From IMG/VR virus record IMGVR_UViG_645058835_000001, positions 1 through 13,104 of that record: 13,104 bases of DNA. One strand, given 5' to 3'. The notes beneath the pieces were generated by a model. The model was given only the letters and a program-made list of their open reading frames with translations, was not told the DNA's origin and made no database searches. Below, in pieces: positions 1 to 5,992 of the stretch; the stretch's first letter is position 1, and each line of letters opens with the position of its first letter. The DNA comes from a virus. Its lineage: Duplodnaviria > Heunggongvirae > Uroviricota > Caudoviricetes. The position numbers were made by a program, and so were the translations under genes.

Positions 1-1230
1 ATGTTTAACAAAATGGATGTAACCAAACTGAACCTCCCGAAGGTTGATATAGAAGAAATGCTTCGAAGGATAAATTCAGGAAAAGCCATTTTATTTACCG
101 GGGCAGGTTTTTCACGTAAAACAAAAAATATAACAAATGGTGAACCACCTCTTGCAAAAGCGCTATCTAAGAAAATAAGTCAGCTCGCAGGGTTAGGTTC
201 TGATAATGAAGATTTAATGTTCACTTCTCGTTTCTTTCTGAAGCACGGAAATAAAAGCGAACTTCTTAAACTATTAAAAGATAATTTTGTGTTGCGTGAA
301 GTTTCTGAATATCATGAGAAAATTTGTTCCTTACCATGGCGAAGGTTTTACACTACAAATTATGATAATTCTATTGAATTGGCATGTCTCAAAACCGGAA
401 GGAGAGTTGAGTCATTGGATATTGATGACCTTCCAAAGGATCATATTTCTCAAGGTGATTTATGTGTACATCTTAATGGCGCTATTGATAAAGCGATAAT
501 ATCCGACCTCGATTCTAAAATAAAGCTTACAAACTCATCTTATCTTTCCCCTCAATCTTTCATTAGCTCCCAATGGAATTACGTTTTTAAAAGAGATCTT
601 GAAACAGCAAGTGCTGTAATATTTGTAGGATACTCCATGTATGATATGGATGTACAAAGATTGCTCTACCAGACAGATAGTCTGGTAGAAAAGACATATT
701 TTATAGTTCATGAAAATGCTAGTTTCCAGGAAACATTTTTTTTGACTGACTTCGGACACGTTTTACCTATTGGAGTAGAAGGCTTTTCTAATTTAATCAA
801 TGATATTCAATTTCAATCCAATGAAAATCGAGAAGAAATATGTCTAGATTGTTTTGAATTAAAAGAAATTAGTTACAATCATGAAACAATTACAGATACT
901 GAAATAAAAGATTTTTTACTCTTTGGAAAGCATGATGATAATCAGATTAACACTTCTGTAAGCAATGATTTTTTAGATAATTTTTTGATAAATCGCGATC
1001 TACTTAAAGAAACTATAAGGTTAATTCAATCCAAAAATAATATTCTTATTCATAGTGAGTTAGGAAATGGTAAAACCGTTTTTCTTAAAATGATAACTTA
1101 TCTGCTCGCTCGTGAAGGATATAATGTTTATACCTTCTCTGAAAAAAGTGAATATGATGATGAATTATCCGAAATTGATTGGATCGTAAAAAAACAAAAA
1201 AAATGTAGTAATTGTGATCGAAGGTTATAA
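1..1230 (+). CDS. SIR2-like (SIR2_2-type) domain protein, N-terminal part of a SIR2-P-loop NTPase; the reading frame terminates inside the NTPase domain
   Basis: 409-aa ORF starting at ATG at position 1 (true start could lie upstream of the window). Motifs in the usual SIR2 order: AILFTGAGFS, RFYTTNYDNSIE, CVHLNGAID, VIFVGYSMYDMD. A beta-strand plus Walker A-like P-loop (ILIHSELGNGKTVFLKMITYLLAREG) sits only ~55 aa before the stop, so the NTPase domain cannot be complete in this ORF. Confidence 0.75.
   Translation: MFNKMDVTKLNLPKVDIEEMLRRINSGKAILFTGAGFSRKTKNITNGEPPLAKALSKKISQLAGLGSDNEDLMFTSRFFLKHGNKSELLKLLKDNFVLREVSEYHEKICSLPWRRFYTTNYDNSIELACLKTGRRVESLDIDDLPKDHISQGDLCVHLNGAIDKAIISDLDSKIKLTNSSYLSPQSFISSQWNYVFKRDLETASAVIFVGYSMYDMDVQRLLYQTDSLVEKTYFIVHENASFQETFFLTDFGHVLPIGVEGFSNLINDIQFQSNENREEICLDCFELKEISYNHETITDTEIKDFLLFGKHDDNQINTSVSNDFLDNFLINRDLLKETIRLIQSKNNILIHSELGNGKTVFLKMITYLLAREGYNVYTFSEKSEYDDELSEIDWIVKKQKKCSNCDRRL
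1188..1203 (+). repeat. Homopolymeric A7-C-A8 tract at the junction of the two SIR2-NTPase reading frames (candidate slippage or frameshift site)
   Basis: Read directly: cgt aaaaaaa c aaaaaaaa tgt. Frame 1 stops at 1228-1230; frame 2 is open from 1190. Removing one A joins them with no stop codon. Confidence 0.9.
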
Positions 1231-2482
1231 TAAAGCAGAACGATTGCTAAATCATATTAATATCAATTATCCTGATGAAATATCGATAATAATTACTGAT
1301 AGAAGTGCAATTGCTTTAAGAACAGCTTACTTCATCAATTCATTAGATATTGAGTTTTCTGAAGTTAGTTTAGATCAGTTAACCGAATCTGAAATTTCTG
1401 ATTTTGTTGATTTGATAGAAAATCAAGGTCTGTGGTCAGAACTTACATCATTGTCAAAGATTAACAAAATCAAAAAAGTTAAAGAAGATTACAATGGCCA
1501 AATCTCAGGGATATTATTAGGTTTACTTAAAAGCCCTTCAATTCAAGAAAGAATCAAATATTTAACAGATGAGTTGTTTAAATCTCAAGAGTATAAAGAT
1601 ACTGTGTTTGCCATAGCATTATGTGACATAATTGATGTAAGAAAAACATCTTCTATTATTTCTGAAATGGCAGGGAATGATAGTATTTATAAAATGAGTC
1701 TTAGATCAAGTGATCAGTTCAAATCTTTATATCGGTTCACAGAAAGCGGTACTGCAATTGAGACAAAATCAAGTCTAATGTCTCTTACGATCATAAATAA
1801 TAGTTTTAATGTGAGCTATGTTAGACATAAACTACTATCAATAGTCGAGACATTTAACAATCTTAAAAATGTATCGTATGATGCAAATAAAATATTTAAA
1901 TCTTTACTAAGGTTTCATGTTTTAGAAGTTTTGCTACCGCAAAAGCAAAAAGCATTGGATAGCTATTACATGGAATTGAAGCGGGTTTGCCCGTGGCTTA
2001 CTGACTCCCCACACTATTGGGTACAATATGCTATGTGTAGACTTTCAATAGGAGATTTAGACTCTGCTCAAACCTATTTAAATGATGCATACTCTTTAGC
2101 TAGATCAAAAGAAGATTATCATACGGAAAATATTGATACGCAGCAGGCTAGATTGCTAATAATGAAGTGTTTAAAAGAACCTGACTCTGGTAAGTGCTTT
2201 GATAGTTTCATCGAAGCTCATAACATACTTATTGGATTGCCTGATGATGGTTATAAGTATAGACAAATAATTCCGTATAAAGATGTCTATGAGCTAAAGT
2301 ATAAACACTTTAATAAAGGTAATAAAGTTCAATTTGAACATGCTTGCAAGGCTCTTTTAGCTCAAGTAAGTTCCGTTGATTACCACCAAGATGATCTTAC
2401 TTTAATTAAAAGAGTATCATTTATAAATAGAAGCAAGGTTATTTTAGAGGAAATAGTAAAAAGTATAACATCCAATAGATGA
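1214..2482 (+). CDS. Continuation of the same SIR2-NTPase protein (rest of the NTPase domain plus an alpha-helical, TPR-like C-terminal region); probably not an independent gene
   Basis: 422-aa ORF in the +1 frame relative to 1..1230, overlapping it by 17 nt. It begins at GTG with no Shine-Dalgarno and has no in-frame ATG for ~140 codons. Its frame opens at 1190, inside the A7-C-A8 tract. Helical repeat-like sequence near the C-terminus (YWVQYAMCRLSIGDLDSAQTYLNDAYSLA). Confidence 0.6.
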   Translation: MIEGYNKAERLLNHININYPDEISIIITDRSAIALRTAYFINSLDIEFSEVSLDQLTESEISDFVDLIENQGLWSELTSLSKINKIKKVKEDYNGQISGILLGLLKSPSIQERIKYLTDELFKSQEYKDTVFAIALCDIIDVRKTSSIISEMAGNDSIYKMSLRSSDQFKSLYRFTESGTAIETKSSLMSLTIINNSFNVSYVRHKLLSIVETFNNLKNVSYDANKIFKSLLRFHVLEVLLPQKQKALDSYYMELKRVCPWLTDSPHYWVQYAMCRLSIGDLDSAQTYLNDAYSLARSKEDYHTENIDTQQARLLIMKCLKEPDSGKCFDSFIEAHNILIGLPDDGYKYRQIIPYKDVYELKYKHFNKGNKVQFEHACKALLAQVSSVDYHQDDLTLIKRVSFINRSKVILEEIVKSITSNR

Positions 2483-2489
2483 TTTTTAT

Positions 2490-2514
2490 AAAGCAGTGGT
2501 TAATACACTGCTTT
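2490..2514 (+). terminator. Hairpin terminator candidate downstream of the SIR2-NTPase gene
   Basis: AAAGCAGTG (2490-2498), loop GTTAATA, CACTGCTTT (2506-2514): a 9-bp perfect stem starting 8 nt after the TGA at 2480-2482, followed by TATATTG. Confidence 0.5.
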
Positions 2515-2781
2515 ATATTGAGTTTCATGAATACACCATTACTGTTATTCAGTACTCATGGCTAGCGTTCTGGTATGTACTCGAGGATATTCTCCGACAT
2601 ATCGGGTTTTAAATACTCAAAACCTCAAGTGAGCGCTTTTATGACGCGCTTTTTGTATTGTTAACCCAACCGTAATCTACAGACAAAAAACCATCAGAAT
2701 CGTGCATAGGCGCTCAAATTTCACGGCTGGGGATTTCTACGTGCATTCAACCCAAAAAGTGACCGAAAAAGTGCTTACAGA

Positions 2782-2803
2782 GTTGACGTTACGTTGACGT
2801 TGT
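2782..2803. repeat. Tandem direct repeat GTTGACGTT x2 with 11-bp period (iteron-like); further TGACG cores at 2884-2891, 2972-2978 and 3005-3010
   Basis: Read directly: aGTTGACGTTacGTTGACGTTgt. Confidence 0.8.
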
Positions 2804-2830
2804 TTTCTGGTGATTTTTGCTCAGTGGTTG

Positions 2831-2856
2831 TTATTATATGTTTGATTATTATATGT
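2831..2856. repeat. AT-rich direct repeat TTATTATATGT x2 with 15-bp period
   Basis: Read directly: TTATTATATGTttgaTTATTATATGT. Confidence 0.8.
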
Positions 2857-2871
2857 ATTTTTAATGTATTG

Positions 2872-2911
2872 CTCACTTCAAACTCACGTCAACTCACTCT
2901 TATAGAGTGAT
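2872..2911. repeat. Three CTCAC repeats at ~10-bp spacing running into a 7-bp-arm palindrome TCACTCT-TAT-AGAGTGA (2895-2911)
   Basis: Read directly: gCTCACttcaAACTCACgtcAACTCACTCTtatAGAGTGA. Confidence 0.8.
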
Positions 2912-3024
2912 TAATTTCTATAAGTACTTTATCTCAAAATTTGATTTTTACGGATGGAAGCCCATCAAAGTAACGTCATTTTTTTCTAAGACTTTGATCT
3001 TTCGTTGACGGTGTTAGTGGGGAC

Positions 3025-3054
3025 TTCGGTCATCGAGCGCAATGCGCTCTTCTG
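3025..3054. repeat. Imperfect 30-bp palindrome with a perfect central 15-bp core GAGCGCAATGCGCTC flanked by GGTCA/TGACC
   Basis: Read directly: GGTCAtcGAGCGCAATGCGCTCttcTGACC. Confidence 0.75.
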
Positions 3055-3188
3055 ACCGTTTCAATGGATAGGTTCGCCTTCTTGCGCCTCTCGCGGCGTT
3101 TGCCGGCTCCGCGCTTTTGGCGGTTTGGCAGGCATATCTCTCTTATTATTGGTCGTTTTTTGCACTGCCTTGTCACGATCTGTCACTA

Positions 3189-4241
3189 CTAGTAGTAATG
3201 GTCATAACCTCCGCTTTCTCTTCTGGCTCTGGATGCTCTCACTCGTGCTTTTCTTAACATCCTTAACAGCGGGTGGGTTTGTACTTTGTTCGAGTTTATT
3301 ATCTGTGAGGATAGTAACTCCCTGCGCTCTGTCTCTGCCTCTTTGGTGACCGCTATCACTGATAAATCCCAATCGTGTTTGCTAATTAACGGTGCTTGGA
3401 ACGGGGTGATTGGTGAGCGATTTATGTCTTGTCGTTTCAATGTACGCTGTATCTGTCGCTTAGCTTTGTAGTTGTCTTTCCTTGATGCCTGAACGGCTTT
3501 TAGTATGCGTCTTACAGCATGAAAGCCAGTGATAGAAAGTGTTTCTTTTTTTATCACATGCCGCGCCCAGCCATTCGAATAACCCCAAACGTTGGCATCT
3601 GACCAATCATATAGGCTCTTGCTCGCCTCTCTATTAAAGTCATTTAACTTAGTTTCGGGCTTTGCCATGTAATCAATCTGTTTACCTATACACTTTGTAG
3701 GCTCTGAATATTGCTGACCTTTCAAATCTAGATCCCACTGGGGAGGAACATTTGATGGGATTGCATTGTTTGCCAGTGTTACCCATTTGCTGACAATTTT
3801 GCCAGCTTGCCCATTAATGCTTCTTTCGTTCACCATGATTATTGCGTGTACATGCGGCTCTGACTGGTGTTGAGCCCACTCCATGACGTAAACCCACTGA
3901 TTGCCTTTCGAAGTCAACCATCTGGTAAGTGCCTTTAACGCTTTGTTGAATTTCTCTGGCGTTGTTCCCTTAACGGGTCTGAAGGTAAAGGAGTAGGGGA
4001 TACCACTAGTTGATTCGACATCCAGAGTAAACAAAGCTCGCCTCATTGTACGCCATTTCTTCTTTGTCCAGGCTGGTGGTATGCAGTGGTTAGCCTTTGA
4101 TGATTGGCGTTTATTCTCTGCCTTTAATTCATTACGTTTGTGCGTAACTGATTTCACATAAGCTAATGTGCGACCATTGATGTGATTGATTACGGCTTGT
4201 GATTTTGTGGATAGACTCGCGTCTTTATCGTATAATTCCAT
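3189..4241 (-). CDS. HUH-endonuclease-type rolling-circle replication initiator-like protein (YfjJ/YagK, inovirus Gp2-like family)
   Basis: 350-aa ORF. Motif order typical of RCR Rep proteins: RALFTLDV / YSFTFRP (motif 1-like), EPHVHAIIMV (HUH), KQIDYMAKPETK (catalytic Tyr-x-x-x-Lys). Basic C-terminal tail. Last gene of a coupled leftward operon. Confidence 0.6.
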   Translation of the reverse strand: MELYDKDASLSTKSQAVINHINGRTLAYVKSVTHKRNELKAENKRQSSKANHCIPPAWTKKKWRTMRRALFTLDVESTSGIPYSFTFRPVKGTTPEKFNKALKALTRWLTSKGNQWVYVMEWAQHQSEPHVHAIIMVNERSINGQAGKIVSKWVTLANNAIPSNVPPQWDLDLKGQQYSEPTKCIGKQIDYMAKPETKLNDFNREASKSLYDWSDANVWGYSNGWARHVIKKETLSITGFHAVRRILKAVQASRKDNYKAKRQIQRTLKRQDINRSPITPFQAPLISKHDWDLSVIAVTKEAETERRELLSSQIINSNKVQTHPLLRMLRKARVRASRARRESGGYDHYY

Positions 4242-4268: not shown

Positions 4269-4655
4269 TCAAAGCCGACTCTCGCAAAGTCGGCTTTCTG
4301 CTTTGTCAATCACAGGTATCTGTCTCCTCATCCGTTCTATTGCATGATTGAACCCTAAGTCTTCCGCGAGAGATACGTCATCCATATTGTCATTGTCATC
4401 CTCAATATCCCGTGATTCTGGAATTGCAGACTTTATTCCCGCATTCTCCGCCGCCAGCGCCGCGCACTTGGCCTCAAGGTTATCAATCGTGATTCCAGCA
4501 GAACGGCACTCCCGCAACGCCGTTTCTAGTTTTGATTCAAGTTCACCGAACTTACGGACAAGATATTCAGCGTTTGTTTCGTTAACATTTAAATCACTTG
4601 GGATGCATTTACCTTTCAGAAATCCATCCATCTCAATTAGTGTCATTTGTTTCAT
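4269..4655 (-). CDS. Hypothetical protein (128 aa), acidic C-terminal half
   Basis: ORF with GGAG-like Shine-Dalgarno upstream of the ATG at 4655; its ATG overlaps the stop of the upstream 54-aa ORF (ATGA). Confidence 0.55.
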
Positions 4656-4816
4656 TTCTTCCCACTCCGCAACATCGCATTCAGATATTTGTTTTGATTC
4701 ACTGATGGAAAAGAATTTCTCTTAAGCAATTCCTCTCTCGATGGCATTGGCTTTACGCGTTGGCGAATAATCATTTCTGCCGGAAGAATGCCGGGATTGT
4801 ATGCAAGTCCTCTCAT
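4652..4816 (-). CDS. Small hypothetical protein (54 aa, [54 protein letters not shown]), not in the supplied ORF track
   Basis: Hand-translated from the minus strand with no internal stop. Its ATG (4816-4814) overlaps the TGA of the upstream gene (ATGA) and its TGA (4654-4652) overlaps the ATG of the downstream gene (ATGA), so it exactly fills the gap between two accepted genes. Confidence 0.5.
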
Positions 4817-5103
4817 GATTTACTCTCCACGAACTGGTCAATAGCCATGCTAAGTGACACACCTAAAGTCTCGATATGCTGCTGAATATCCTGTAGCGTC
4901 TGCGCCTGAGATAACAGGATTTCACGGTTGCATAATTCTTTAACCAGATGCTCAAACTTGCTGTAATAACCGATACGGCTTAGTGTTTCTTTCCCTGCAT
5001 TCTCGCCTTCTTTGATAATTCCTCTTTCGCTAAGAATCAGATCGTGTTTGGTTCCGGTAATAACGTATTTTCCGAGGTCGATGTTTAGCTTCATTGTTTT
5101 CAT
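4813..5103 (-). CDS. Hypothetical protein (96 aa; start at [13 protein letters not shown] rather than the longer track ORF)
   Basis: GAGGAA Shine-Dalgarno 6-7 nt upstream of the ATG at 5103-5101; begins 10 nt after the stop of the upstream gene. Confidence 0.6.
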
Positions 5104-5113
5104 TGTTAATTCC

Positions 5114-5407
5114 TCAGTCATTACTGATAGCGCCATAGCGTGAGCGGTAATTACGCAGGCGCGGGTCAATTTCAGGGAAGTGTGTATATGTTGCTTTGCG
5201 GAATGGTCGGATTGATGTCTGGTAAATTCGCTCGCGTTCTTCTTTCTCTGCAAGCCATATACAGTGGCGAAATTCCTTTTCCTCTTTCGTTTCCTGCGGT
5301 AGAGACATTATTCGATCGTAGTTTTTTCTGAATTTATCCAGCACCTCCGATACGGAATTGCCGGAACAGCGGCGTGGGTCATCCGCACCATACAGAGGCG
5401 CTGGCAT
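5114..5407 (-). CDS. Hypothetical protein (97 aa)
   Basis: ORF with AAGGA Shine-Dalgarno ~8 nt upstream of the ATG at 5407; same strand and tight spacing with neighbours. Confidence 0.6.
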   Translation of the reverse strand: MPAPLYGADDPRRCSGNSVSEVLDKFRKNYDRIMSLPQETKEEKEFRHCIWLAEKEERERIYQTSIRPFRKATYTHFPEIDPRLRNYRSRYGAISND

Positions 5408-5430
5408 AATTAAATCCTTATTTTTCTAAA

Positions 5431-5814
5431 TCAGAATGGGATGGAATCGTCGTATACAGGAGTGTTCTGCTGGTTACTACTTTGCTGCTGCGGGCCATTT
5501 CCTGAAGCTGCAAATCCAATCTTTGCATTCAGTAATTCAAGAGTGATTGATTGACCATTTTGCCCCTGATAAACATCAACCCTGATGTTTTCTCCGGTAA
5601 TTTCCACAATGCCACCTTCAACAAGAACACTACGGTAGTAATCCGCTTGCGCTCCCGGCTTGGCAAATACAACGGCGCTGTAGTTTGTCCATTCTTTCTT
5701 TTTTGTCTGGCGATCGTAATACTGAACGCCAGCACGGATGTTGAATCCGATATTTTCCCCGGCCTGAAACTCTCTTGCGGGCTTGTTTAGTCTTACAGTA
5801 ATCGAATGTGCCAT
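5431..5814 (-). CDS. Single-stranded DNA-binding protein-like (short OB-fold SSB with an acidic C-terminal tip)
   Basis: 127 aa from MAHSITVRLNKP. C-terminus ...NTPVYDDSIPF resembles the conserved SSB tail DDDIPF; a Gln/Asn/Gly-rich linker precedes the tail. GGAG upstream of the ATG at 5814-5812. Confidence 0.55.
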   Translation of the reverse strand: MAHSITVRLNKPAREFQAGENIGFNIRAGVQYYDRQTKKKEWTNYSAVVFAKPGAQADYYRSVLVEGGIVEITGENIRVDVYQGQNGQSITLELLNAKIGFAASGNGPQQQSSNQQNTPVYDDSIPF

Positions 5815-5951
5815 TAAGCAGCCGCTCCTTCTAATTCGTCTCGTCTGATGTTGTAAACGCCCTGCGCTTTGTGCTGCTCCGGTGTGCCTTCGAGCATCTT
5901 CCACGCTTTGGCGAACGCCTGTTTAAGCTCTTCTACGGTGTTTTTCTGCAT
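5814..5951 (-). CDS. Possible small leader ORF (~45 aa, MQKNTVEELKQAFAKAWKMLEGTPEQHKAQGVYNIRRDELEGAAA) coupled to the SSB-like gene; start uncertain
   Basis: Its TAA stop (5816-5814) overlaps the SSB-like ATG (TAATG). No convincing Shine-Dalgarno; the longer track version (to 6113) overlaps the DnaB-like ORF on the opposite strand. Confidence 0.25.
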   Translation of the reverse strand: MQKNTVEELKQAFAKAWKMLEGTPEQHKAQGVYNIRRDELEGAAA

Positions 5952-5992
5952 TGCTGCGTCAGTGAATGCTTTTAGAACCTGTTCAGGTGTAG

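What the first reader, a model, noticed from the sequence alone, without database searches (positions are those of the whole stretch)
2740..2915. Dense cluster of short tandem direct repeats at helical-turn periodicity: candidate iteron-type origin or Rep-binding region
Seen within ~170 bp: AAAAAGTG x2 (2753, 2766); GTTGACGTT x2 at 11-bp period (2782-2803); TTATTATATGT x2 inside an AT-rich stretch (2831-2856); CTCAC x3 at ~10-bp period (2872-2897); then the palindrome TCACTCT-TAT-AGAGTGA (2895-2911). The TGACG core recurs five times between 2783 and 3010 on both strands. Established knowledge: iterons plus an AT-rich unwinding element plus a hairpin nick site is the standard plasmid and phage origin layout. 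Inference: the element encodes a HUH Rep, an SSB and a helicase homologue, so an origin is expected, and this is the only extended non-coding region near those genes. A transcription-factor binding array is the alternative.
Basis: partly seen in the sequence, partly recalled or inferred. Interest (0 to 1): 0.6.

Follow-up and report, generated by a model that had tools for sequence, protein, structure and literature searches.

The report
Probable origin of a plasmid-like island
The repeat cluster is real and lies in a roughly 400-bp non-coding block that travels with a rare rolling-circle replication gene in E. coli argW islands and in small Klebsiella plasmids, so it is most likely their uncharacterised replication origin, though this is not proven.

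Summary

Only some of them matter. The tandem 11-bp GTTGACGTT pair is conserved in every relative. In two lineages both copies carry the same G-to-A change. The 86-87-nt AT-rich spacer keeps its length while its sequence diverges. The TTATTATATGT pair, the CTCAC triplet and the TCACTCT/AGAGTGA palindrome are specific to this lineage.

It lies 3' of a HUH Rep gene (Pfam PF23343; the catalytic H-x-H, Tyr and Lys are invariant across the family). The same ordered motif array and the same HTH-p128-Rep-...-resolvase backbone occur in 5.3-6.3-kb circular Klebsiella plasmids, which carry no other replication gene.

My best reading is a Rep-dependent origin region, at 0.55 confidence.

- There are no DnaA boxes and no long iterons.
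- The "SSB" and "helicase" genes belong to a fused P22-like prophage remnant, not to the Rep element.
- The island in this window is truncated.

Nothing has been tested experimentally. A transfer origin, a regulatory site or a cargo-recombination site remain open.

The parts
3189..4241 (-). rep: 350-aa HUH rolling-circle-type initiator. Motif I is FTF, motif II is HVHAII, motif III is IDYMAKP.
3027..3058 (.). GC-rich hairpin CGGTCA..GAGCGC-AAT-GCGCTC..TGACCG. Possible rep terminator or single-strand origin. Recurrent rearrangement junction.
   Evidence: Consensus structure has SCI 0.94-0.97. In Klebsiella L006 cargo is inserted right after GGTCA. L048 is fused to an integrase fragment at the same arm. 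Plasmid relatives have an analogous GGCGC-TTC-GCGCC hairpin.
3004..3010 (+). Fourth GTTGACG copy.
   Evidence: It varies between variants (CGTTAAC, CGTAAAC, CATCAAC).
2979..2995 (-). Motif A, AAAGTCTTAGAAAAAAA. The most conserved sequence of the block.
   Evidence: Nearly invariant in the 11 variants: one substitution in one variant over these 17 nt. Present as AAAGTCyTAGAAAAAAA in plasmids whose Rep is only 24-29% identical.
2953..2966 (.). Motif B, a small hairpin GATGG-GCTT-CCATC, 29 nt from motif A.
   Evidence: Fixed +29 spacing in all lineages. The plasmid version is GAAGG-GCAT-CCTT(T)C.
2943..2951 (-). Motif F1, GTAAAAATC.
   Evidence: Fixed +44 position in the integrative and Klebsiella elements. 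The plasmids have GTAGAAAC at the same place.
2899..2924 (.). Conserved inverted repeat CTTATAGA - 10 nt (AATTAATCAC) - TCTATAAG (motifs C and E1). Candidate hairpin carrying or flanking the nick site.
   Evidence: 8-nt arms, 100% complementary (I24). The arm at 2917-2924 and most of the loop are invariant in all 11 variants. The arm at 2899-2906 varies at one or two positions in some. Motif C sits at +70/71 in every lineage.
2894..2910 (.). Lineage-specific.
   Evidence: Found in only 3 of 11 variants. The others read GGATAAG.
2887..2893 (-). Single inverted GTTGACG copy on the rep-proximal side of the spacer.
   Evidence: Conserved as GTTGACG or GTTGATG in 10 of 11 variants. Absent in Klebsiella L006.
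2802..2886 (.). AT-rich (73% A+T) hypervariable spacer of conserved length.
   Evidence: 86-87 nt in 10 variants. AT content 66-78%. Identity to the window falls to 47% while the flanks stay at 91-98%. Substitutions show no 3-nt periodicity. One variant, L048, carries a (CCAG)n expansion.
2782..2801 (+). Tandem 11-bp repeat GTTGACGTTAC / GTTGACGTT. Candidate initiator-binding sites.
   Evidence: Conserved in all variants and in Klebsiella. In L004 and L010 both copies carry the same G-to-A change, CATCAAC twice.
2774..2781 (-). Motif E2, TCTGTAAG. A direct copy of E1 about 125 nt away.
   Evidence: E1-E2 spacing is 124-125 nt in the integrative forms and exactly 119 nt in four plasmids.
2750..2773 (+). 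12-bp tandem ACCCAAAAAGTG / ACCGAAAAAGTG.
   Evidence: Kept in the E. coli variants, degraded in L004, L010 and L006.
2732..2740 (-). Motif F2, GTAGAAATC, about 40 nt after E2.
   Evidence: Same E2-to-F2 distance (40-41 nt) in the integrative elements and the plasmids.
2680..2733 (-). Imperfect hairpin plus T-run on the rep strand. Marks the end of the conserved block. Variable cargo starts beyond it.
   Evidence: Alignment homology among variants ends at about 2678-2680. The terminator-like shape is read from the sequence. The simple terminator scan did not call it.

Best explanation
The repeat cluster is the right half of a roughly 400-bp cis-acting block (window 2680-3060, read on the minus strand, which is the rep strand). 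The block is most likely the replication origin region of a plasmid-derived integrative element.

Proposed mechanism (inferred, not shown):
1. The element excises from argW, or exists as a free plasmid in the Klebsiella relatives.
2. The HUH Rep binds the GTTGACG repeats. Two copies sit in tandem at one-helical-turn phasing on one side of the 86-87-nt spacer. One inverted copy sits on the other side, with further copies in the left half.
3. Binding helps expose a conserved single-stranded target in the left half. Candidates are the CTTATAGA / loop / TCTATAAG hairpin at 2899-2924 and the nearly invariant AAAGTCTTAGAAAAAAA at 2979-2995.
4. Rep nicks there through Tyr191, and rolling-circle synthesis proceeds.
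5. The GC hairpin at 3027-3058 would serve as the rep terminator and/or the lagging-strand (single-strand) origin.
6. The serine resolvase and its res site resolve multimers.

In this particular window the element has lost its own int-alpA-HTH-p128 module. The origin here is therefore probably a relic, or is dependent on read-through expression of rep from the fused prophage remnant.
For: 1. The cluster is highly non-random.
2. It lies between convergent genes, so it is not a promoter region for either neighbour. It is directly 3' of a gene with an intact HUH Rep signature and fold.
3. The block is part of the element backbone, not the cargo. Its sequence and its orientation relative to rep are the same in E. 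coli, E. albertii, metagenomic and Klebsiella elements carrying different cargo: SIR2, AIPR, HNH_2 and hypothetical genes.
4. Free circular 5.3-6.3-kb Klebsiella plasmids share the syntenic backbone DNA-binding protein - p126 - Rep - block - cargo - resolvase. Protein identities to the E. coli element are 44%, 40%, 24% and 45%. One record is a head-to-tail dimer. These plasmids have no other replication gene and no replicon type. Their origin must therefore lie in the shared non-coding DNA.
5. These plasmids carry the same motif array at fixed spacing: A at 0, B at +29, C at +70, E1 at +125, E2 at +244, F at +285. The integrative forms read 0, +29, +71, +90, +215, +255.
6. Both tandem copies carry the same G-to-A change in two lineages, which suggests concerted change.
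7. Spacer length is conserved while its sequence is hypervariable.
8. Between E. coli and Klebsiella elements that are otherwise 96-100% identical at protein level, Rep (50%) and the block (about 76%) are among the most diverged parts, together with p58 (49%) and p251 (73%).
9. There is experimental precedent for tandem 11-bp direct repeats placed about 84 bp from a nick hairpin in a rolling-circle origin: pMV158 (PMC1851628).
Against: - No experiment exists. No nick site is identified, and none of the nick motifs I recalled from memory occurs in 2680-3188.
- The GTTGACG/GTTGATG variants do not track Rep type. Both Rep types, only 50% identical, occur with both versions.
- The GTTGACG-type motifs sit in different places in plasmids (between C and E1) and in integrative forms (after E1 and before E2).
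- In plasmid L035 a 0.6-kb cargo splits the block right after motif C. In Klebsiella L006 cargo separates rep from the block. This is unusual for a compact origin.
- The spacer is not AT-rich in the plasmids.
- pEC4365 persists as a plasmid with Tn4401 inserted at rep codon ~73. An in-frame ATG could still yield a truncated Rep that keeps all three motifs.
- In E. coli the block is complete in 541 genomes while rep is at least 80% complete in only 221. The block therefore persists without an intact Rep. Many of those genomes are clonal O157.
Confidence: 0.55

Rival explanations
1. The block is a transfer origin (oriT), alone or doubling as the replication origin. The HUH Rep would act as a relaxase, so that the excised island or small plasmid is mobilised by a co-resident conjugative element. 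The repeats would bind accessory proteins.
For: - HUH Rep-like proteins serve as relaxases in some integrative mobilisable elements (established knowledge).
- Rep gives a weak sub-threshold Pfam hit to the MobA/VirD2 relaxase family, E 0.008.
- Two 15,668-bp KPC-2 plasmid records of identical length, with the same match coordinates and statistics, come from Enterobacter cloacae and Klebsiella pneumoniae. This implies inter-species transfer of a replicon typed as non-mobilisable.
- The element also carries int and alpA, as mobilisable islands do.
Against: - The motif order in Rep (I, II, III) is that of replication initiators, not of classical relaxases.
- The structural neighbours are replication proteins of viruses and plasmids.
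- The block has no blastn similarity to any of 72,556 plasmids, so it does not mimic a known oriT.
- The small plasmids still need a vegetative origin and have no other candidate initiator.
Confidence: 0.12
2. The block is a regulatory or transcript-related region rather than an origin. It could be a binding array for the element's small DNA-binding proteins (HTH_17, AlpA, p128) or a host factor. It could also be a long rep 3' UTR or a small RNA bounded by the GC hairpin and the terminator-like hairpin at 2680-2733.
For: - The HTH and p128 genes are co-conserved with the block in both plasmids and islands.
- The GTTGACG variants do not co-vary with Rep type.
- The block persists where rep is truncated.
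- A terminator-like structure closes the block on the rep strand (read).
- One sigma-70-like site, TTGACG-18-TACATT, lies on the minus strand.
Against: - The block lies between convergent genes, so there is no downstream gene to regulate.
- The promoter-like site is not conserved in L004 or L010 and is no more than chance gives: 1 found against 2.0 expected.
- RNAalifold finds no conserved structure beyond the GC hairpin, and I saw no compensatory changes.
- No Rfam family matches.
- The spacer shows no coding signal.
Confidence: 0.15
3. The block is chiefly a recombination platform for swapping defence cargo. Rep (a Helitron/IS91-like HUH enzyme) or the resolvase would cut at repeated sites to capture or exchange cassettes.
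For: - Three different cargo positions border or split the block: inside the GC hairpin (L006), right after motif C (L035), and after the block end (E. coli, L036).
- Two independent rearrangements, a cargo insertion in L006 and a fusion to an integrase fragment in L048, map to the same arm of the GC hairpin.
- E-type motifs (yTrTAAG) recur at E1, at E2 and again at the block end next to the cargo.
- Half of the Rep family hits Helitron_like_N.
Against: - Junction clustering can equally be a by-product of replication nicks. Rep-mediated illegitimate recombination at origins is established for rolling-circle plasmids.
- The resolvase has its own res-like repeats next to its gene.
- No matching site was found at the far cargo boundary.
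Confidence: 0.08
4. The lineage-specific repeats (TTATTATATGT twice, CTCAC three times, the 17-bp palindrome) are neutral slippage products in fast-evolving AT-rich DNA and have no function of their own.
For: They lie in or at the edge of the hypervariable spacer. They are absent from most variants. Another variant, L048, has a (CCAG)n expansion in the same spacer.
Against: This explains only part of the cluster. It does not account for the conserved tandem GTTGACG pair, the fixed spacer length or the motif array shared with the plasmids.
Confidence: 0.05

Closest known systems
Double-strand origin of rolling-circle plasmid pMV158 (nic locus with IR-I hairpin and proximal repeats, plus bind locus of three 11-bp distal direct repeats 84 bp away)
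   Same: - A HUH initiator is encoded next to the site.
- Tandem 11-bp direct repeats lie roughly 100 nt from a conserved small hairpin.
- A further repeat copy lies beside that hairpin.
   Different: - Rep belongs to PF23343, not the Rep_2 family.
- There are two tandem copies, not three.
- The nick sequence TACTACGAC is absent.
- The block lies 3' of rep, not upstream.
- The host is a Gram-negative bacterium.
- Binding and nicking are untested.
SaPI/PICI-type origins (iterons flanking an AT-rich region immediately 3' of the rep gene of an integrative, AlpA-carrying island); compared from my own knowledge
   Same: - The block sits 3' of rep in a tRNA-integrated island that carries a P4-like integrase and AlpA.
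- Repeats lie on both sides of an AT-rich spacer.
- The island carries anti-phage cargo.
   Different: - The initiator here is a HUH nickase, not a primase-helicase.
- No packaging or capsid-redirecting genes are present.
- No helper phage is known.
- Free plasmid relatives exist.
Integrative elements that replicate by rolling circle after excision (pSAM2-type AICEs with RepSA; ICEBs1 with NicK); compared from my own knowledge
   Same: - A tyrosine integrase combined with a HUH or Rep-type initiator on one integrative element.
- Two family members give weak hits to Pfam RepSA.
   Different: - No conjugation genes are present.
- The host is an enterobacterium.
- The element also carries a serine resolvase with a res site.
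- The backbone is shared with small plasmids.
Iteron-type theta origins (pSC101, R6K, F, P1)
   Same: Direct repeats at helical-turn periodicity next to AT-rich DNA.
   Different: - No RepA-type initiator.
- No DnaA boxes.
- No strict IHF consensus.
- Only two short tandem copies instead of several 17-22-bp iterons.

Membership tests
Rolling-circle double-strand origin served by a HUH Rep | A cognate HUH initiator with motifs I-III and a catalytic Tyr is encoded in cis | tested here: met
   PF23343 hit. H130, H132, Y191 and K194 are invariant in the family. The model shows a HUH fold.
Rolling-circle double-strand origin served by a HUH Rep | The site is inherited together with rep, in a fixed orientation, across autonomous replicons of the family | tested here: met
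   Same orientation in all islands. The same motif order and spacing occur in five free plasmids that have no other rep gene.
Rolling-circle double-strand origin served by a HUH Rep | A Rep-binding repeat array near the nick region | tested here: inconclusive
   A conserved GTTGACG array with the same change in both tandem copies is present. Binding is untested, and the variants do not track Rep type.
Rolling-circle double-strand origin served by a HUH Rep | Site-specific nick by Rep, and single-stranded replication intermediates | not testable with these tools
   Needs purified Rep and replication assays. No recalled nick motif occurs in the block.
Iteron-type theta origin | Several (3-7 or more) direct 17-22-bp iterons bound by a RepA-type (Rep_3) initiator | tested here: not met
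   Only two 11-bp tandem copies plus dispersed 7-mers. The initiator is a HUH protein.
Iteron-type theta origin | DnaA boxes and an adjacent AT-rich unwinding element | tested here: not met
   No DnaA box with 2 or fewer mismatches lies in 2682-3305, and the window-wide count equals chance. The spacer is AT-rich only in the integrative lineage; plasmid spacers are 43-52% GC.
pMV158-family origin | Rep_2-family RepB, and the nick sequence TACTACGAC in the IR-I loop | tested here: not met
   Rep matches PF23343 only. The motif is absent from 2680-3188. The resemblance is in layout only.
SaPI/PICI-type origin | Replication by an island-encoded primase/helicase initiator acting on iterons 3' of its gene | tested here: not met
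   The position 3' of rep and the flanking repeats match. However, the initiator is a 350-aa HUH protein with no helicase or primase domain.
Origin of transfer (oriT) | A nic site cleaved by a relaxase and recognised by a conjugative coupling system | not testable with these tools
   No nucleotide similarity to any PLSDB plasmid. The plasmid relatives are typed non-mobilisable. The Pfam Relaxase hit, E 0.008, is below threshold.

The most novel reading that the evidence does not exclude
The block is both an origin and a Rep-driven cassette platform. The Helitron/IS91-like HUH Rep would start and stop at the repeated yTrTAAG-type sites and at the GC hairpin. Defence genes would then be captured and exchanged at these points between small plasmids and argW islands. 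This would explain why three distinct cargo slots border or split the block, and why independent rearrangements share the same hairpin junction.
Probability: 0.1. Interest if true: 0.8.

Novelty: new variant of a known kind. Interest (0 to 1): 0.5.

Why it matters
If the block is the origin, it defines a previously uncharacterised enterobacterial replicon. The replicon combines a rare HUH Rep (27 relatives with E up to 0.001 among 1.84 billion representative proteins), a conserved non-coding motif array and a resolvase.

It exists in two life-styles:
- As 5-6-kb plasmids in Klebsiella and Enterobacter. One has picked up Tn4401 carrying KPC-2.
- As int/alpA-equipped islands at argW, in about 10% of complete E. 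coli genomes. These carry changing anti-phage cargo (SIR2-STAND, AIPR, HNH).

The finding would give plasmid-typing schemes a missing replicon, since these plasmids currently have no replicon type. It would also explain how such islands amplify after excision. Finally, it would offer a compact system for studying how defence cargo is exchanged next to an origin.

Tried and rejected
- **Resemblance to the phiX174 origin.** I compared ACTTATAGAAATTAATCACTCTATA with the 30-mer I recalled from memory. The local alignment score is not significant (P about 0.09 against shuffles), and another part of the window scores higher. Rejected as evidence.
- **Known nick motifs recalled from memory** (pMV158, pC194/phiX, pT181, Ff, gemini/nano/circovirus, R388, RP4, ColE1). 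None occurs in 2680-3188.
- **DnaA boxes and strict IHF consensus.** Neither is present in the block. GATCAAAGTCTTAG is only a near-match to IHF, and it is not kept in the plasmids.
- **Hydrophobic 38-aa ORF at 2794-2910 (+), a possible type I toxin.** It is open in 9 of 11 variants, but substitutions show no third-codon-position excess, the frame shifts between variants, and it is cut short in L004 and L010. Rejected.
- **Non-coding RNA.** No Rfam hit. RNAalifold supports only the GC hairpin.
- **Site for the serine recombinase.** No repeat links the block to the resolvase region, which has its own res-like repeats.
- **argW att site.** The att repeat lies beyond the resolvase, not in the block.
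- **My early conclusion that Klebsiella elements lack the block.** This was wrong. The block is displaced behind the cargo.
- **First AlphaFold run on a 5-sequence alignment.** Unusable, pLDDT 40.
- **PDB sequence search.** No informative hit.
- **Scan of viral contigs for motif A.** Mostly chance hits.
- **Literature searches** for argW with rolling circle, PF23343 and pEC4365. Nothing found.
- **pHW126/pIGMS31 plasmids.** An unrelated, non-HUH family.
Full report
**Observation**

The region reads as the first-stage reader described, with offsets of at most 1 nt.
- ACCCAAAAAGTG / ACCGAAAAAGTG at 2750-2773.
- GTTGACGTT twice, at 2782-2790 and 2793-2801, with an 11-bp period.
- TTATTATATGT twice, at 2831 and 2846.
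- CTCAC three times, at 2872, 2883 and 2893.
- The palindrome TCACTCT-TAT-AGAGTGA at 2894-2910.
- Five TGACG/CGTCA cores between 2784 and 3010.

This is not chance. The 176-nt region holds three families of exact direct repeats of at least 8 nt spaced 8-20 nt apart. None of 2000 dinucleotide-preserving shuffles reached that, and tiles covering this region hold more such families than tiles anywhere else in the window. All four exact GTTGACG matches in the 13.1-kb window fall within 2782-3010, against 1.08 expected for the whole window.

**Context**

The window is the E. coli argW locus.
- The repeat region lies in a 706-bp gap between convergent genes. One is a SIR2-STAND defence gene ending at 2482 on the plus strand. 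The other is a 350-aa gene on the minus strand (4241 to 3189). The gap is therefore 3' of both genes.
- The 350-aa protein is a HUH rolling-circle-type initiator. It hits Pfam PF23343.
- E121, H130, H132, Y191 and K194 are invariant across an 18-member family alignment, and the motifs run in the order typical of Rep proteins.
- All 18 members hit PF23343 and nine hit Helitron_like_N.
- An AlphaFold model with pLDDT 78 matches HUH replication nucleases: SIRV1 ORF119, parvovirus NS1, the RepB origin-binding domain and Helraiser. It also matches predicted microvirus, gpA-like and inovirus initiators.
- The family is tiny. Only 27 proteins score E of 0.001 or better among 1.84 billion representatives.

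**The element**

In intact relatives (E. coli strains 600468 and 99-3165, and Klebsiella) the gene sits in a 9.5-10.4-kb island bounded by a 23-bp repeat of the argW 3' end. The gene order is:

argW - tyrosine integrase - p251 - AlpA - p63 - HTH_17 - p128 - Rep - non-coding block - variable cargo (SIR2-STAND, AIPR, HNH_2, hypothetical genes) - small ORF - serine resolvase with res-like repeats - att.

In the present window, homology to that island stops at 4319, only 78 nt upstream of rep. To the right lies a P22-like prophage remnant:
- an Ead/Ea22-like ORF, DUF2737 and Abc2;
- an SSB-like ORF ending in DDSIPF;
- a DnaB fragment, Mnt, an HNH-AP2 gene and a tailspike;
- a Wzy-like gene and IntS.

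The origin argument cannot lean on them.

**What is conserved**

I aligned 11 sequence variants of the 560 nt downstream of rep, in rep orientation, and measured variability along the alignment.
- **First ~130 nt after the stop codon.** These follow Rep's own divergence.
- **Window ~2890-3060.** Nearly invariant (91-98% identity), even in a metagenomic element whose Rep is only 49% identical. This stretch holds the GC hairpin at 3027-3058, the sequence AAAGTCTTAGAAAAAAA at 2979-2995, a small hairpin at 2953-2966, and the inverted repeat CTTATAGA-N10-TCTATAAG at 2899-2924.
- **The AT-rich spacer, 2802-2886.** Hypervariable, down to 47% identity, yet 86-87 nt long in all ten variants where it could be measured.
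- **The tandem GTTGACG pair.** Conserved. In E. albertii and in the metagenomic element both copies carry the same G-to-A change, which suggests concerted change.
- **The right flank.** Moderately conserved down to about 2680, where a terminator-like hairpin ends the block and the cargo begins.
- **Lineage-specific features.** The palindrome occurs in 3 of 11 variants.

I first thought the Klebsiella elements lacked the block. That was wrong. It lies behind their cargo, in the same orientation.

**Plasmid relatives**

A tblastn search of PLSDB found Rep homologues at 24-29% identity in small circular Klebsiella and Enterobacter plasmids. The fully annotated ones show a syntenic backbone:

68-aa DNA-binding protein - p126 - Rep - non-coding region - cargo - small ORF - serine recombinase - HTH protein.

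- Identities to the island proteins are 44%, 40%, 24% and 45%.
- The plasmids carry no other replication gene, have no replicon type, and are typed non-mobilisable.
- One record is a head-to-tail dimer.
- Another, pEC4365, is the 5657-bp backbone plus Tn4401/KPC-2, inserted at rep codon ~73. An in-frame ATG could still yield a truncated Rep that keeps all three motifs.

The non-coding region of these plasmids carries the same motifs, in the same order and with rigid spacing:

| Motif | Sequence | Plasmids | Integrative forms |
|---|---|---|---|
| A | AAAGTCyTAGAAAAAAA | 0 | 0 |
| B | GAwGGGC | +29 | +29 |
| C | CTTATA | +70 | +71 |
| E1 | yTATAAG | +125 | +90 |
| E2 | yTrTAAG | +244 | +215 |
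| F | GTAgAAATC | +285 | +255 |

In the plasmids a TTGACG-type palindrome lies between C and E1. A replicon of 5-6 kb must have its origin somewhere. This shared array is the only extended non-coding sequence conserved with rep across the whole family.

**Interpretation**

The GTTGACG repeats would be the candidate initiator-binding sites. The closest worked-out analogue in layout is the pMV158 origin. There, three tandem 11-bp repeats lie 84 bp from the nick hairpin, and further repeats lie beside that hairpin (PMC1851628).

This resemblance is one of layout only. The Rep family differs and the pMV158 nick sequence is absent. A classic iteron/theta origin is not supported:
- there are no DnaA boxes;
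- there is no strict IHF site;
- there are only two short tandem copies;
- the initiator is a nickase.

**Caveats**
- Nothing has been tested biochemically, and the nick site is unknown.
- The GTTGACG/GTTGATG variants do not track the two Rep types.
- The GTTGACG motifs sit in different places in the plasmids and the islands.
- Cargo can separate rep from the block (L006) or split the block right after motif C (L035).
- The spacer is AT-rich only in the islands.
- In E. coli the block is complete in 541 genomes, while rep is at least 80% complete in only 221.

**Rival explanations**
- **An oriT, or a dual-use origin.** Not excluded. Two 15,668-bp KPC-2 plasmid records of identical length, with the same match coordinates and statistics, come from two species.
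- **A regulatory or transcript-related region.** Disfavoured. The flanking genes converge on it, no promoter is conserved, no RNA family matches and no covariation is seen, and the spacer shows no coding signal.
- **A cargo-recombination platform.** Suggested by three cargo slots at or within the block. In addition, two independent rearrangements map to the same arm of the GC hairpin. This could equally be a side-effect of replication nicks.

**Novelty and verdict**

I found no description of this replicon, its Rep family or its origin in the searchable literature. The kind of system, a HUH Rep with a nearby repeat-bearing origin on a plasmid or an excisable island, is known. This family and its motif array are not.

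I rate interest as moderate, at 0.5.

Noticed in passing
window 1-2482 (A-run near 1188-1200): The SIR2-STAND defence gene is a single 826-aa ORF in strain 600468. Here it is split into two ORFs (1-1230 and 1214-2482) by one extra A in a poly-A run, A7 against A6. This is either a real inactivating frameshift or a homopolymer sequencing error.
   Followed up: partly
window 4319-13104: The window is a chimera. Homology to the intact Rep island ends at 4319, 78 nt upstream of rep. To the right is a P22-like prophage remnant: Ead/Ea22-like ORF, DUF2737, Abc2, SSB-like ORF ending in DDSIPF, DnaB fragment, Mnt, HNH-AP2, tailspike at 8033-10210, low-GC Wzy-like O-antigen polymerase at 10388-11632, and IntS at 11947-13104. 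As a result rep now sits at the end of a prophage early-left-type gene string.
   Followed up: partly
window 3027-3058; L006 ~9180; L048 10930-10960: The GC hairpin just 3' of rep is a recurrent rearrangement junction. In Klebsiella elements cargo is inserted right after GGTCA. In an IMG/VR contig an integrase fragment is fused to the same hairpin arm, and rep is absent.
   Followed up: partly
L034-L039 (PLSDB CP073059, AP022186, CP141860, CP103581, CP124881, NC_032098): Small Klebsiella and Enterobacter plasmids without a replicon type share the HTH-p126-Rep-block-resolvase backbone. pEC4365 is the 5657-bp backbone plus Tn4401/KPC-2 inserted inside rep, and a second record of identical length comes from K. 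pneumoniae. CP141860 is a perfect dimer of a 6066-bp unit.
   Followed up: partly
L001 vs L006, whole element: Between the E. coli and Klebsiella islands, Int, AlpA, p63, HTH_17, p128 and the resolvase are 94-100% identical. Rep is only 50% identical and the small ORF next to the resolvase 49%. This points to allelic replacement or fast diversification of the replication gene within a nearly fixed backbone.
   Followed up: no
L001 10548-10680 (upstream of the resolvase gene): Three copies of TGTCTCAATnGGGT in direct and inverted orientation look like a res site. They are nearly invariant across the E. coli, Klebsiella and metagenomic elements.
   Followed up: partly
window 2794-2910 (+): A 38-aa, very hydrophobic ORF with a TTG start spans the AT-rich spacer and stays open in 9 of 11 variants. 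Substitution phase gives no coding signal, so it is probably a by-product of composition.
   Followed up: yes
L048 11160-11190: One variant of the spacer carries a (CCAG)n microsatellite that lengthens it by about 15 nt. It is the only exception found to the 86-87-nt length.
   Followed up: no
window 2680-2700; L023 and L048 block ends: The block ends in a third E-like motif preceded by a T-run: TTTTTGTCTGTAG here, TTTTTATCTGTAAG in two variants. It lies directly next to the point where the cargo sequences diverge.
   Followed up: no
E. coli complete genomes: The rep gene is 95-100% identical across 538 genomes but is truncated in more than half of them. The adjacent block is nearly always complete yet only 80-95% identical. 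The non-coding block therefore evolves faster than the gene beside it.
   Followed up: partly
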